The notes under the pieces were generated by a model, which did not search any database, was not told the origin of the DNA, and saw only the letters and a program-made list of their open reading frames with translations. Below are positions 14,601 through 20,600 of a DNA stretch of 64,000 bases, in pieces. The translations under genes and the position numbers were made by a program. How positions within the stretch are numbered: position 1 is the first letter of the stretch; each line of letters starts with the position of its first letter. The DNA is from the human T2T-CHM13v2.0 reference genome, Homo sapiens. The stretch lies in NCBI RefSeq assembly GCF_009914755.1, contig NC_060940.1, one strand, 5' to 3'.

Positions 14601-17600
14601 ATCTTAAAGAACTCACAGCATCAAACAGAACACATGAATAAAGACCCACATTCAGATACATTATCCCAGAGTTTCAGAGCACTAAGAATAAGGACTATGT
14701 CAAAAAAGTTTCCAAAGATAACAAGATTCAAACAAACATGAGGACCAGGTGGCCTGCATTCAAATCCTGGCCCTCACATGTGACAGCTGTTATGATCTTG
14801 GGACAAGTCTTTCTGTGGCTCAGTTTCTTCATCTGCAAAATGGGGACCACAGCAGTATTAGAGGGTTGTTGTGGGGAGGAAATGAATTAATTTAGTTAAA
14901 AGACAGGGCCTGAAGCCAATCACAATCAATGCCGTATGTTCACCTATTATTGTTATTCAAAAGAAAAAAAAGCAACCAAGAAGAGAAGTCAGTAATTATT
15001 TGTCATCAATATTATGACTGTCTCCCCAGCATTCATTTCACTCCCTCCACTGTGGAGTAGCTATGTGACTTAAAGTTGGAAATGGGTGTAACTCCAACCC
15101 TAGCCTAACCAATGATCCGTATCCCATCAAACCACTAATTAGTTTTGGGATGCCTAAATTAATCCAATAATAGTAATGCTCCAGGCTTTTGCCTCCATGG
15201 CTGGGGCAGGAAATGCTTTCCTCCAATAACAGTAAAGCTCCAGGCTTCTGCCTCCGTGGCTGGGCCAGGAAATGCTTTCTTTCTGCTTCCTCTTTGCTGT
15301 AGACCCCAGAGGCTGCTGGTCACCTATGAGGAAAGTCATCACAGGGCATGGGCAAAGCTCAGAGACATGATCCCACTGTGCCTGAAGTCCACACAACCAT
15401 CCTACTTTTTAATGATGTGAGCCACTAAGCTCCCTTTCTCATTTAAACCCATTCGAGTTGGGGTTTTTGTTGTGTCCATCCAAAAGCACCCTCGCTGATG
15501 TATTACAGGCCGGAGCCTCCAGACTAAGCCCAACTTTGCACCAGGCATTACCTGGATGATGTATGACAATGACAGGCCTTTGGATGAAGTACTGATGGAG
15601 GAGAAACTCAGGGTCACCAACAAGGCCACAGTGAAGGTAAGGATGTTCATGAGGACATCCATTCTCAGCGCAAACCACCTGAGAGCACAGTTAAAGTAGA
15701 GGAGGTGACTGGAGTTTTCGTCGTTTAGCGTCTTAAACCTACAGTCAAGAAAATCAGAAAAAGCAGGAGATCAGGTTGTGCTGTAGACTTAAGGTTAGGG
15801 TGACTGGAGAAATGAGGCCAAGGAATTTTTAATCAAGGGAACACACTCTCACATAGCAAACTCTTACAAAAATGAACATATATTCATGCTCTTAAAAATC
15901 TGCCACTCTAGACATCTTTGATTTGCACATATTTTGGGAAATCTCATGTGGCAATAGAGTAGGGTGCTAAGTGGCTCTTTCTGTCTTTCCCAGAACTGGC
16001 AGCTAGAATCTACAGCTGAGAAGAAGAGGTGCCGAGTGCTTCACATTCTGACTCCAAAGGATCCCTATCGTGGAGTCAGTCACCCTCAAAGGCTTTGTGG
16101 AATTGACAATTGGCCCCCTTGATCTATAGAAAGGGTGGGGGTGGGTTGTGGAGGAGGTCACCTTTAGGGAAATCAATGTTTGTGACTGTAGAGGAGGGAA
16201 GGGAGGGTGCATGTTAGGTTTCCCTCCCTGAATCAGAGAAAGAAGATTGAAGACAATTGCTTATAAAGCTGGGAGCTTCTTCAAGGACAGGAAGCTGACA
16301 CCTTGCATCCCTGCTGCACGTCCACGGAGCCAAAGGGCTTGGAGAGGGGGGAAGAAGCACAGAGCGGAGTGACAGGGAGATGACACAGCCAGGGGATGGG
16401 GGCAAGACCCACCCCCTGGAGTTCCGCATTCCCCAGATGTATGCAAGGTGGATCCCATCAGCTCCACAGTTCCTAGGGCTGAGATAGCAGAAGGAAGATG
16501 ACCTTGGAGGCTGCAGTCTTGATGTGACGGTCCCTGGCATGAAGCAAAGGGGCCTCCACATCAGAGGAGTGCAGTGTGAGGGCTGCCAGGCAGAACTCAC
16601 AGGAAGACCCAGCAACTCCTACCGATGCAGCAATGCTGGCAGAACTCCTGGGGTTCTGGCCCTACTGGGGCCTCCAAGCTGCTGTCCCACATCTGCACAG
16701 TGCATTGCAGCAGCAGGAAAGGATAGCAGAAAGGAGAGAATGGCCCAGAGGTGCCAGTCACCCAAGGATGTGTTCTTCCTGCTGTCCCCTCCCCAGTTCC
16801 CCCACATGGGCATCAGAGAGCCAGGCCTGGAGAAAAGGAAGAGGGTGTTTAAAAGCACAGAGCAGGTGCTTCTCAATTGCAAGCCTGCCCCACCTGACAC
16901 ACACACACACACACACACACACACACACACACACACACACACACAGCATAGCCTTGCCACACCAAGCCTCTGGGGGAAAGAGACCTGTGGCTTGAATATA
17001 TTCAAGATTGAAATTTTCACCGCACTGAGCTGACCATTAACCAAAAGAGACATCAGATTCAATTGCCACTGTGGCTTCCCTGATCTAGTGGGGAAGGGCT
17101 TCATGAGAACAGCTGGTAGAAACTACTGGGGGAAAAATGAAAACCGTTCCACGCTTAAAGCCCTAAGGAGGTACAATTCCTCCCCTGGCATAGCTGTGAA
17201 TGGCCTCAGGCACTGCTGCTCCATGCTGTCCTGGAAGGCCTCCCAGAGTTCTGCCTGGAAGCCCCTCTGACCAGCCGCCCTGGGCTCTGCTGCCCTCTCC
17301 TCCTCTCTGTTTCAACTCTAACTTATTTTCCCCAGAGCTTAGTCAAAATATTCTTCAAAACACAGTGCTGTTTCTATCATGTAGCTATACAGCATACAAA
17401 TTCAACTGACAGCCTCCATGACCTGGAAGTCACCTGTGGTCTTATCCGTGTGGTTGGTTAGATTGCATAGAAACAAAATCACTAGCTGGGATCAAATTGG
17501 AATTTGACCTCTAATCTTTTTACATTTTTTAAGCTGTAGCATTTTTGTCTGGTGGCAAATGCAATACACGTCAGAAACCCAAGCCCTTTGGAAAGAAACT

Positions 17601-20600
17601 ATTAAAAGAAGGGAACCCCCATCAGTCATTCTTGGCTCCCTATAGGATTCTCTCAGAAATCTTGGAGTAGAAGCTGTGGGAAGACAAAGTTTGCATGTGT
17701 GTTTGTTGTGGGTGAGTAGACTAATGGCTCCATGGGCTTTCCTCATGGCCAGGACTTTGGAAGTGTCTATGTGTGAGGCAGGACTCTTGACAAACGATGT
17801 TCAGGTCAAACTAGGGTCCGGACTAGGTGCTGACTGAACTAAAGACAAGGTGTGATGTCAAGTCTACTCTGAGATCCTGGGTGGTAAAATGGAGGGGGCG
17901 TGAGAGAGAGAATTAGAGGCAATTCTAAATTTAATGCAATTCCAGGCTGGTTGCAGTGGCTCACTATAATCCCCGCACTCTTGGAGGCCAAGGCAGGTGG
18001 ATCACTTGAGGTCAGGAGTTTGAGACCAGCCTGGCCAACATGGTGAAATGCTGTCTCTACTAAAAATACAAAAATTAGCTGGGCCCCAGTTACTTGGGAG
18101 GCTGAGGCAAGAGAATCGCTTGAACCCAGGAGATAGAAGTTGCAATGAGCCGAGATGATGCCATTGCACTCCAGCCTGGGTGACAGAGCAAGACTCTGTC
18201 TCAAAAAATAAAAATAAAAATAAATAAATTTAATGCAATTCCAAACTTAGAATGCATTCGATGCACCCTTTAGAACTGCATCTAATTCTTTCTCTCTGAA
18301 GGGTGTGTTGGCATTTTAAGGAAGGAAAAGACAGAAAGTGGGAAAGGCTGCTATGGATTCACCAAACTCCATTTTCTTTTCCTCCTTTGGACACAGCTGG
18401 ACTACATTTCCCAGCCTCCCTTGCGTTAGGTGAGCCCATGTGACTCCAATGTGGCCAAGGAATGTGCAGAAATCTTGGGACACTTCGCTAGGGTTGGACC
18501 ATAAAATCCCCCTGGGTCCTCCTTCCTGGCCTCTCGCCTTGTCTTCCGGCCTAACACAGAAGATCCGAGAGAATACCTCAGGGCCTTGGGACAGAAGAGC
18601 CCCAGATAGAAACAGACTATGCCTGAGTGTGGAGTACAATCACCTACTGTTGCCCCATGGACCTTCACTAAATTGTGACATCAGGAAAAATAAAAATTTA
18701 TTGCATGATCTCCCTAAGATTTGGGCTTATTGTTACTGCAGTGAGCCTACTGTGATTTATCCTTTTTCTTTTTTTTTTTTTTTGAGACAGAGTCTCACTC
18801 TGTTGCCCAGGCTAGAGAGCAGTAGCACAATCTCAGCTCACTGTAACCTCTGCCTCCCAGGTTCAAGTGATTCTCCTGCCTCAGCCTCCCAAGTAGCTGA
18901 CATTACAGGTGCCCACCACCACACCCAGCTAATTTTTGTATTTTTAGTAGAGATGGGGTTTCGTCATGTTGGCCAGGCTGGTCTCAAACTCCTGACCTCA
19001 CATGATCCACCCACCTCGGCCTTCCAAAGTGCTGGAATTACAGGCGTGAGCCACCGCGCCCAGTCTGATTTATACATTTTATGTCATATTTTAGAAGTTT
19101 GAAGCTGGAAGATGCCAGAGAGATTTACTAATGTAGTCCCCATATTTTAAAAAGAAGAAAATGCTAAGTGAAATGAAAGGTGGCCTTTAGAAATTATTTT
19201 TACAAGACTCGTGTAATAACATGAAACAGGCTATTTCAAACTGTTAAATAAATTTAAGAAATGATTATAAATAAGAAGAAAAAGAAGACGCCATGAATAG
19301 AAAAAAAGAACAAAAAATGGAAGGAAACATGAAAAAATTAATAGGTTTGGGTTTGGGGAGGGGCTGTAAGTGATTTTTTTCTTCTTTTTTCTTCTTTTCC
19401 CTATCTTCCTGAATCAAACACATTTTTACTTTTAGAATGAAAAATAGAACAAATGAGGTTGTCATTGAACAAGCTCCCCTCATTCACATCTTCTGGGGCC
19501 CAAGATGCTGGAAGAGAGGCTGTGAGGCCAAGTGTCTTCAAGGACTCCTCCTGATTCTTCCAGCTCTTTGTCTGTGATCAGTCCCCAGCAGCCCAGACTT
19601 CCCTCCTCCTGTGCACTCCCCATCGGAGTCAGGCATGAAGCATGGGGGCCTGGGGCAGGGCCCCACATGGGACTCACTAGGTGATGCAGCTCTCCTTCTT
19701 GCCATAGGCGTGAATGATGCCCAGGCCCTGCATGGAGGAGGTGATGTGGGTGAACCAGGGTGACCGGCTGACATTCTCCACCTTCTTGAGCTCCTGGACT
19801 CCTCTGTGGAAAATGCTGGAAGAAAATTGAAAGGGGCCAGGTGGGCCACAAAGTGAGGTCTCATCAGGCTTGCCCTCACACATACAGAGCCAACTAGGCA
19901 CTCAGCACAGTGCTTAAGTCAGAGACGGTGCCATCTAACTGGGGATGAAGAGCAGCCTGCCATTCTGCAGTGGTGCCTGCCCCAGGTGTGGGAATGGCGG
20001 AGGCGTGAGAACCATGAGTCAGCGGCACCTTCGTTTGGCCACGGTGCTGTGTTTCTCATATCAGGAAAGTCTCGCTCCACAAGGCGTGATTCTAGTCTTC
20101 TAAAACCAAAATTTCTCATACAGCACAGCCCCTAAGTATCAGCCAACCACTTTTTGGTGCCCAGCCAGAGAAAAAGTGATCTGATCTAACTCTGGAAGAA
20201 AACCCGGTGTGTCAACTGCCAACATGTGGCCTTCTAAAGGCATTTTCAAAGGTAATTTTGAATGAACGTCATTATAGCTGACTTTAAAACCAAACACCCA
20301 CGGGATGCAGCTCCCCTTTATGTGGAAGCTCCAGGAGCCCTGGTGAGCAGGAGACCAGGGACCTCGGGTGTTTACAGCAGCTGGCTGGCCCCCGAGAGAG
20401 AAGACAATCAAACCTCCAGACTCTCAGCCAAAACAAACCCAGGGCAGTGAGGAGGGAAGTCTCATTAGTGCAGAGCTAAAGTGAGTTGTTTGGAAACACT
20501 TGGATAATTCAAGCAGGACGAGCTCTGGTCTGTCTAGTCTTTATAGCTAGAGGGGTGGGTACAGAGCAGGGAAAGAGCTTTTACTAAGTAAATCAACTGC

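What the first reader, a model, noticed from the sequence alone, without database searches (positions are those of the whole stretch)
15708..19679. A stop codon built by splicing: exon 21 TA plus ancestral exon-22 G gives TAG, and only a weak internal acceptor rescues the frame
Seen: exon 21 ends ...ATC ACC TA|gtgagt (19679-19678). Exon 22 has a strong acceptor (tctcctgctttttctgattttcttgactgtag|G at 15738), followed by an open, protein-like G TTT AAG ACG CTA AAC GAC GAA AAC TCC AGT ([10 protein letters not shown]). Using it gives TA|G, a stop at codon 1013 with 7 junctions downstream. A purine-rich acceptor exactly 30 nt further in (ctaaacgacgaaaactccag|T at 15708) gives TA|T = Tyr and an open frame 10 aa shorter. 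Recalled, unverified: truncated human MRP9 cDNAs with an extra 30 nt at exon 22 have been described, and rodent Abcc12 keeps [10 protein letters not shown]. Inference: the upstream site is ancestral, and a single change in this split codon made the preferred splice nonsense. Human ABCC12 on this haplotype would then be a leaky, partly pseudogenised gene: most mRNA is NMD-targeted or lacks NBD2, and the 'full-length' protein has a 10-aa deletion in TMD2.
Basis: partly seen in the sequence, partly recalled or inferred. Interest (0 to 1): 0.88.

Follow-up and report, generated by a model that had tools for sequence, protein, structure and literature searches.

The report
ABCC12 junction stop rescued by weak acceptor
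In human ABCC12 the normal, ancestral splice junction spells a stop codon, so the annotated full-length protein depends on a very weak splice site 30 bases further in and lacks ten conserved residues, which may make the human gene a weak copy of its animal counterparts.

Summary
Coding exon 21 ends TA|gtgagt. The acceptor at 15738 adds G, giving TAG at codon 1013 with seven junctions downstream. The acceptor at 15708 adds T, giving Tyr and removing 30 nt.

RefSeq already carries both: 6 NR_ transcripts use 15738 and 2 NM_ (including Select) use 15708.

New evidence supports the evolutionary reading. ABCC11 and ABCC5 have the intron at the same position and phase, with the long exon and sense codons (CA|G, AG|A). 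A bat ABCC12 reads Lys plus FKMLNDENSS. The long form is collinear with solved ABCC5.

A matrix trained on 467 Select acceptors scores 15738 at +5.7 bits (median of real sites). It scores 15708 at -7.7, below all 467 and like a random AG.

Downstream, 347 codons stay open and the NBD2 motifs are intact.

Not shown:
- The real usage ratio, since no reads were available.
- The date or population status of the T, since no primate or rodent sequence could be obtained.
- Whether the 10-residue-shorter protein works.

"Partly pseudogenised" therefore remains an inference. The transcripts are known; the evolutionary explanation was not found in print.

The parts
19678..19815 (-). Coding exon 21 (138 nt). 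It encodes the ICL4 / coupling-helix stretch and ends with the first two bases (TA) of split codon 1013.
   Evidence: It aligns to ABCC5 8kci_A residues 1036-1071. The homologous exon is also 138 nt in ABCC11.
19679..19679 (-). The T that makes the split codon TA|G. The same position is C in ABCC11 (CA|G) and, from the protein, A in bat ABCC12 (Lys). It is also donor position -2.
   Evidence: Base frequencies at donor -2 in 451 real donors are A 0.60, C 0.16, G 0.13, T 0.11.
19672..19677 (-). Donor gtgagt of intron 21. The 9-mer scores 7.2 bits, the 32nd percentile of 451 real GT donors.
15739..15775 (-). Polypyrimidine tract, branch-point-like motifs (CTGAT with A at -16 and at -33; TTGAC with A at -7) and the AG (15740-15739) of the ancestral acceptor A.
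   Evidence: The matrix score is +5.66 bits, the 51st percentile of 467 real acceptors.
15709..15738 (-). The 30-nt segment (G + [10 protein letters not shown] codons). It is exonic when acceptor A is used and intronic in the Select mRNA. It is purine-rich and ends in the AG (15710-15709) of acceptor B.
   Evidence: It is homologous to ABCC5 residues 1077-1086, to ABCC11 FKRLTDAQNN and to bat FKMLNDENSS. Acceptor B scores -7.68 bits.
15552..15708 (-). Coding exon 22 as used in the Select mRNA (157 nt). Its first base T completes TAT (Tyr).
15781..15793 (-). 5' arm of a 13-bp inverted repeat. It contains two upstream AGs.
15732..15744 (-). 3' arm of the same inverted repeat. It covers the AG of acceptor A and the out-of-frame AAG 7 nt further in. 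This is a possible mask of site A and is hypothetical.
   Evidence: -15.3 kcal/mol, z -2.22, 6 of 200 shuffles fold as well.. There is no such stem at the ABCC11 site (z +1.42).
2521..10015 (-). Coding exons 23-29 (rest of TM11-12 and NBD2), lost from the protein if the TAG is read. They are still open, with Walker A, Q-loop, signature, Walker B and H-loop intact.

Best explanation
The acceptor at 15738 is the original acceptor of this exon, shared with ABCC11, ABCC5 and ABCC12 of other vertebrates. In the lineage leading to this human reference, the first base of the codon split by intron 21 became T. The ancestral codon was X-A|G: Lys in a bat and Gln in ABCC11. The normal junction therefore now spells TAG at codon 1013.

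The only nearby AG that restores a reading frame lies 30 nt inside the exon, at 15708. It supplies T instead of G (Tyr) and removes ten conserved residues, [10 protein letters not shown], just after the ICL4 coupling region and at the start of TM11. The annotated 1359-residue protein is this rescue product.

Site 15708 has no pyrimidine tract and scores like a random AG, whereas 15738 scores like an average real acceptor. I therefore infer that a large share, probably most, of primary transcripts are spliced at 15738. Those transcripts would be NMD substrates or would encode a protein without TM11-12 and NBD2. On this reading human ABCC12 is a hypomorph relative to its orthologues.

Shown here: the anatomy, the ancestry of the site and of the 10 residues, and the sequence strength of the two sites. 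Inferred: the in vivo ratio, the decay of the TAG isoform, and impaired function of the shortened protein.
For: - The stop and the rescue are read directly from the sequence.
- ABCC11 has the same exon sizes. All 17 of its transcripts that span the site use the long (187 nt) exon, and its split codon is CA|G.
- ABCC5 has the same intron position and phase, with AG|A.
- Solved ABCC5 (8kci_A) is collinear. Exon 21 residues 6-41 match 1036-1071, and long-exon residues 3-62 match 1079-1138, with no gap.
- Bat ABCC12 P0006 reads ...[21 protein letters not shown]....
- All 6 sequences covering this stretch in alignment A1 keep the segment.
- Matrix scores are A +5.66 and B -7.68. B lies below all 467 real acceptors and at the 48th percentile of 20000 decoy AGs. 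Bootstrap values are 5.5 +/- 0.6 and -7.8 +/- 0.8.
- 6 of the 8 RefSeq transcripts across the junction use A, and all six are filed as non-coding.
- Among in-frame AGs from -122 to +132, -42 runs into TGA, +60 gives TAG again, +75 gives TAA, and only +30 and +132 stay open.
- A review reports that an MRP9 with 1 NBD and 8 TM helices was proposed. That fits truncation here plus exon skipping.
Against: - No RNA-seq junction counts were available, so the ratio is a prediction from a simple matrix, not MaxEntScan or SpliceAI.
- The curators chose the 15708 form as Select.
- The 347 codons downstream are open with all NBD2 motifs intact. That fits continued selection on the rescue isoform, or a recent mutation.
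- A review states that ABCC12 deficiency is linked to human cholestasis with bile-duct loss, which implies a working human protein.
- All six A-using RefSeq transcripts also differ from Select elsewhere. They may therefore be a biased sample of aberrant cDNAs.
- A local hairpin could mask site A.
- No primate or rodent sequence was obtained, so the age of the T is unknown.
Confidence: 0.7

Rival explanations
1. Site 15708 is the main acceptor in the tissues that matter (testis, cholangiocytes). The 1359-residue protein would then be fully functional despite the 10-residue loss, and the TAG isoform would be a minor by-product or a dial on expression (unproductive splicing).
For: The Select/MANE choice is 15708. 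The downstream frame and NBD2 motifs are intact. A review reports a human disease link. A hairpin covers the AG of site A, at -15.3 kcal/mol, z -2.22, with 6 of 200 shuffles folding as well.
Against: Site 15708 scores below all 467 real acceptors, and the sequence upstream of it is purine-rich. 6 of 8 RefSeq transcripts use 15738. The deleted residues are kept in ABCC5, ABCC11, a bat and two bird models. The hairpin is only weakly significant, and its conservation could not be tested.
Confidence: 0.25
2. The T is a polymorphism or peculiar to this haplotype, and many people carry a sense codon and make the long protein from 15738.
For: None from my calls.
Against: The RefSeq NM_ records, built from cDNAs, place on this assembly with the 15708 junction and an unbroken 4080-nt CDS. 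A full-text search for ABCC12 together with Y1013H, Tyr1013His, c.3037T, Q1013 or Gln1013 found no ABCC12 paper. No population table could be consulted.
Confidence: 0.05
3. The TAG isoform is the functional product: a truncated MRP9 without TM11-12 and NBD2 that escapes decay and has its own role.
For: A review relays a report of two transcripts and of a form with 1 NBD and 8 TM helices in breast cancer, breast and testis.
Against: The same review says a later study found only full-length Mrp9 in mouse germ cells and sperm. Seven downstream junctions make it an NMD candidate. A transporter with one NBD and an incomplete TMD2 has no known working precedent in the ABCC family (established knowledge). 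The primary papers could not be read.
Confidence: 0.08
4. The two acceptors are an old, conserved alternative-splicing pair in ABCC12, not a rescue of a lineage-specific stop.
For: Tandem acceptors are common (established knowledge).
Against: In the bat the 15738-type junction is a sense codon, so there it is productive. All 17 ABCC11 transcripts spanning the site use only the long exon. The inner site has no acceptor-like sequence.
Confidence: 0.04

Closest known systems
Alternative 3' splice sites coupled to nonsense-mediated decay (unproductive splicing)
   Same: One donor and two acceptors. One product has a stop far upstream of the last junction, and RefSeq files it as non-coding.
   Different: The unproductive product here comes from the strong, ancestral site, and the productive one from a site that scores like a random AG. 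In a bat the same junction is a sense codon, so this is not a conserved regulatory switch.
Nonsense or frameshift variants bypassed by cryptic splice-site use or exon skipping (splicing rescue of a disabling variant)
   Same: A stop in the normal mRNA is removed from a minority or alternative mRNA at the cost of a small in-frame deletion.
   Different: The stop is not inside an exon. It is assembled across the junction, so changing the acceptor changes the third base of the codon itself. The rescue form has become the reference gene model.
ABCC13, the human ABCC pseudogene (named as such in the review), and lineage losses of ABCC11/ABCC12 in cetaceans (preprint passage)
   Same: Members of the same subfamily erode in particular mammalian lineages.
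   Different: Human ABCC12 keeps an open 4080-nt CDS through the rescue junction and intact NBD2 motifs, so it is not a plain pseudogene.
ICL4 / TM11 folding region of ABCC proteins (CFTR residues about 1077-1087 by collinearity with 5uak_A)
   Same: The deleted ten residues sit directly after the coupling-helix stretch encoded by exon 21.
   Different: In CFTR, single substitutions here are known folding mutations (recalled, not checked). Here ten residues are missing from the reference protein. My structure model was too poor to say more (mean pLDDT 47.1).

Membership tests
Alternative 3' splice site pair with an NMD-candidate isoform | Two acceptors joined to the same donor, each supported by transcripts | tested here: met
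   Of 8 RefSeq transcripts spanning the junction, 6 use 15738 and 2 use 15708.
Alternative 3' splice site pair with an NMD-candidate isoform | A stop more than about 50 nt upstream of the last exon junction in one isoform | tested here: met
   TAG at codon 1013 with seven coding junctions downstream.
Alternative 3' splice site pair with an NMD-candidate isoform | The isoform rises when NMD is blocked | not testable with these tools
Conserved regulatory unproductive splicing | The stop-containing junction is conserved in orthologues | tested here: not met
   Bat ABCC12 has Lys at the junction codon. ABCC11 has Gln and ABCC5 has Arg. Only one mammalian orthologue was seen.
Lineage-specific nonsense change rescued by a cryptic acceptor | The frame through the upstream acceptor is the ancestral one | tested here: met
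   Same intron position, phase and exon length in ABCC11 and ABCC5. The long form is collinear with ABCC5 structures. All 6 sequences covering the stretch keep the segment.
Lineage-specific nonsense change rescued by a cryptic acceptor | The rescue site is weak or not used in relatives | tested here: met
   The matrix score of -7.68 is below all 467 real sites. All 17 ABCC11 transcripts spanning the site use the long exon. Use in orthologues was not testable.
Lineage-specific nonsense change rescued by a cryptic acceptor | The lineage and date of the change are known | not testable with these tools
   The three protein searches returned no primate or rodent sequence across the junction.
Unitary pseudogene | No transcript with an intact reading frame | tested here: not met
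   The 15708 junction gives an open 4080-nt CDS.
Unitary pseudogene | Further disabling changes downstream of the first one | tested here: not met
   347 codons are open. Walker A, Q-loop, signature, Walker B and H-loop match the bat, whale and pangolin fragments.
ABCC5/11/12 clade full transporter | TMD2 collinear with relatives across ICL4 and TM11 | tested here: not met
   Collinearity is met by the long reading only. The annotated short protein lacks the ten residues equivalent to ABCC5 1077-1086.
ABCC5/11/12 clade full transporter | Second nucleotide-binding domain with canonical motifs | tested here: met

The most novel reading that the evidence does not exclude
Human ABCC12 survives as a coding gene only because a local RNA hairpin (arms 15781-15793 and 15732-15744) hides the ancestral acceptor and three other AGs. 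On this reading the spliceosome, using the same branch point and pyrimidine tract, reaches the first free AG, at 15708. The gene would then be a natural case of an RNA structure compensating for a nonsense codon built across a splice junction. Productive output would be set by hairpin stability, and the protein would be permanently ten residues short in TM11.
Probability: 0.1. Interest if true: 0.75.

Novelty: new member of a known kind. Interest (0 to 1): 0.5.

Why it matters
ABCC12/MRP9 is studied in mouse and zebrafish for male fertility and bile-duct disease, and human variants are interpreted against the Select model.

If the human gene makes mostly a decay-prone mRNA and a protein missing ten conserved residues, three consequences follow:
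- Animal knock-outs may overstate what the human gene does.
- Loss-of-function and missense calls in ABCC12 need care. A change at window 19679 is labelled as a Tyr1013 missense, yet it would reopen the ancestral long frame. The 30 nt at 15709-15738 are labelled intronic.
- The many aberrant cDNAs and the disputed truncated MRP9 protein gain a simple cause.

It is also a clean example of a stop codon that exists only after splicing. Exon-by-exon pseudogene scans miss such stops.

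Tried and rejected
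Orthologue search. The search for homologous proteins only sees proteins 0.55 to 1.75 times the query length, and no exon is long.
- One search used the 122-residue open frame around exon 22. It gave one hit, a gray-whale fragment starting after the junction, with 21 unnamed candidates left out.
- One search used that fragment. It gave 4 hits, with 31 left out. Pangolin and lizard start after the junction, and an eagle model is marked low quality.
- One search used the eagle model. It gave 3 hits among 12 candidates, with 62 left out: a low-quality flamingo model and the useful bat fragment.
- No primate or rodent was reached, so the T could not be dated.

Pfam. Exon 21 matched ABC_membrane only weakly (E 0.05, below cut-off), and the two exon 22 versions did not match. 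This is too short a query to be useful.

Structure. The bat fragment with a 9-row alignment gave mean pLDDT 47.1, and 48-61 over the segment. I rejected it as evidence and ran no fold search.

Folding. The 141-nt fold had z -0.14. Only the 76-nt hairpin stood out.

Literature.
- Bera 2002, Ono 2007 and Pham 2021 are not held.
- Searches listed papers, and I read passages only. None describes this junction.
- Searches were too broad and listed nothing relevant.
- One search found no ABCC12 paper for the codon-1013 variant names.
- My statement that the evolutionary explanation is not in print rests only. The unread primary papers (Yabuuchi 2001, Tammur 2001, Shimizu 2003, Bera 2002, Ono 2007) may well describe the 30-nt variant.
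- Supplementary tables of PMC6560109, which list the four human-lineage changes in ABCC12, were closed.

Stop-codon readthrough was considered. I did not pursue it because I had no tool to test it.

Full report
WHAT IS THERE

On the minus strand, coding exon 21 of ABCC12 (window 19678-19815) ends ...ATC ACC TA, followed by gtgagt. About 3.9 kb further on lies an acceptor with a pyrimidine tract...ttcttgactgtag|G, with first exon base 15738. Thirty bases inside it lies a second AG...gaaaactccag|T, with first exon base 15708.

Using the RefSeq Select CDS (4080 nt), exon 21 ends two bases into codon 1013, and seven coding junctions follow exon 22. Joining exon 21 to 15738 gives a stop after ...ESCIT, and the frame then reads [15 protein letters not shown]... 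Joining to 15708 gives Tyr and an open frame to the normal stop.

WHAT THE ANNOTATION ALREADY HOLDS

RefSeq lists 13 ABCC12 transcripts, of which 8 span this junction. Six of them (NR_171628 to NR_171633, all filed as non-coding) use 15738. Two (NM_001393797 Select and NM_033226) use 15708. All six NR_ transcripts also differ from Select elsewhere, by skipped exons or by a donor 9 nt further in at 30393 in five of them.

A review relays an earlier claim of an MRP9 with one NBD and eight TM helices. It also relays a later study that found only full-length Mrp9 in mouse germ cells (passages). A stop at codon 1013 combined with skipping of an early exon would give such a form. That link is my inference. 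The primary papers were not held.

WHICH ACCEPTOR IS ANCESTRAL

- A six-frame search of the human reference with the long exon found the homologous exons of ABCC11 and ABCC5.
- In ABCC11 the four consecutive exons measure 198, 227, 138 and 187 nt, exactly as in ABCC12 with the long exon. All 17 ABCC11 transcripts spanning the site use the 187-nt exon.
- The ABCC11 split codon is CA|G (Gln), followed by FKRLTDAQNN.
- ABCC5 has the intron at the same place and phase, with AG|A (Arg), followed by a collinear segment.
- Against solved ABCC5 (8kci_A), exon 21 residues 6-41 align to 1036-1071, and long-exon residues 3-62 align to 1079-1138. The long reading is therefore collinear without a gap, and the ten residues correspond to ABCC5 1077-1086.
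- Three capped protein searches, climbing from short fragments, reached one mammalian orthologue across the junction. This Myotis myotis fragment reads ...EDCIT, Lys, [15 protein letters not shown]....
- Two low-quality bird models also keep the segment.
- In alignment A1, all 6 sequences that cover the stretch keep it.

The upstream site and the ten residues are therefore ancestral, and the human T at 19679 is the derived state. Whether it arose from C (as in ABCC11) or from A (as in the bat) is open.

HOW STRONG THE TWO SITES ARE

I trained a 23-position log-odds matrix on 467 Select acceptors of chromosome 16, taken from the 20 regions plus this window, with site 15708 left out. The background was 20000 unannotated AGs.

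| Site | Score (bits) | Rank among 467 real sites | Rank among decoy AGs |
|---|---|---|---|
| 15738 | +5.66 | 51st percentile | 98.6th percentile |
| 15708 | -7.68 | below all 467 (lowest real site -3.85) | 48th percentile |

- Bootstrap values are 5.5 +/- 0.6 for 15738 and -7.8 +/- 0.8 for 15708.
- The homologous ABCC11 and ABCC5 acceptors score 7.09 and 5.94.
- The other 27 Select acceptors of ABCC12 score between 1.94 and 10.23.
- The exon 21 donor is ordinary, at 7.2 bits and the 32nd percentile of 451 real GT donors.
- Among the in-frame AGs between -122 and +132 of site 15738, -42 runs into TGA after three codons, +60 begins with G and rebuilds TAG, and +75 gives TAA. Only +30 and +132 stay open. 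Site 15708 is therefore the nearest AG that can rescue the frame.

By sequence, 15738 should win. This is a prediction, because no reads were available.

WHAT ARGUES FOR A WORKING GENE

- The 347 codons after the junction are open, and Walker A, Q-loop, signature, Walker B and H-loop are intact. Identity to the bat fragment is 289 of 368 aligned positions, although part of the bat model is garbled.
- A review states that ABCC12 deficiency is linked to human cholestasis with bile-duct loss (passages). The primary paper is not held.
- A preprint states that cetaceans lost ABCC11 and ABCC12 (passage).

A POSSIBLE HELPER

A 13-bp inverted repeat pairs 15781-15793 with 15732-15744. It covers the AG of site 15738, the out-of-frame AAG just inside it, and two upstream AGs.
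- The 76-nt fold has -15.3 kcal/mol and z -2.22, and 6 of 200 shuffles fold as well.
- The ABCC11 site shows no such stem (z +1.42).
- Over 141 nt the fold is unremarkable (z -0.14).

If the stem forms on the pre-mRNA, 15708 would be the first free AG after the branch region. This is a lead only.

STRUCTURE

An AlphaFold model of the bat fragment was poor, with mean pLDDT 47.1 and 48-61 over the segment, so it says nothing reliable. By collinearity with ABCC5 and with human CFTR (5uak_A 1036-1071 for exon 21 residues 5-40), the missing residues follow the ICL4 coupling stretch and lead into TM11. That a ten-residue loss there harms folding is an inference from general knowledge of this fold.

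VERDICT

The quantitative claims are untested: most mRNA lost, haplotype-specific, partly pseudogenised.

The transcripts are known. I did not find the explanation in the searched library, but the key early papers could not be read.

Noticed in passing
window 15732-15744 and 15781-15793: A 13-bp inverted repeat (85% complementary) forms a hairpin that buries the AG of the ancestral acceptor and three other AGs. It gives -15.3 kcal/mol and z -2.22, and is absent at the ABCC11 homologue.
   Followed up: partly
window 15706-15718 and 15735-15747: A second 13-nt inverted repeat (85%) lets the sequence around acceptor 15738 pair with the sequence around acceptor 15708. It may be chance.
   Followed up: no
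window 15803 (first base after the AG), 65 nt upstream of 15738: An unannotated AG with a good matrix score (+6.21). Its surroundings share an 11-base direct repeat with the weak site at 15708 (read). It is out of frame.
   Followed up: no
window 15678: An in-frame AG 60 nt inside the exon scores better (+2.89) than the annotated inner site. It starts with G, so it would rebuild TAG.
   Followed up: yes
window 30384-30468 versus 30393-30468: Five of the six RefSeq transcripts that use 15738 also use a donor 9 nt further in at this exon, so the two choices travel together in the curated cDNAs.
   Followed up: no
window 9926-10027, 6732/6742/6746-6891, 40045-40646, 60008/60012-60159: Further alternative ends are present in RefSeq. 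They include an internal first exon that yields 203- and 233-residue NBD2-only products, and an alternative terminal exon that yields a 571-residue N-terminal product.
   Followed up: no
P0001 (gray whale), P0006 (bat), P0004 and P0005 (birds): The whale fragment lacks most of NBD2, which fits a preprint's statement that cetaceans lost ABCC11 and ABCC12. The bat model has a garbled stretch in NBD2. Both bird models appear to read through the intron at this same junction.
   Followed up: partly
ABCC12 gene as a whole: A catalogue paper names ABCC12 as one of two genes with four high-frequency human-lineage missense changes relative to archaic hominins. The positions are in supplements I could not open.
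   Followed up: no
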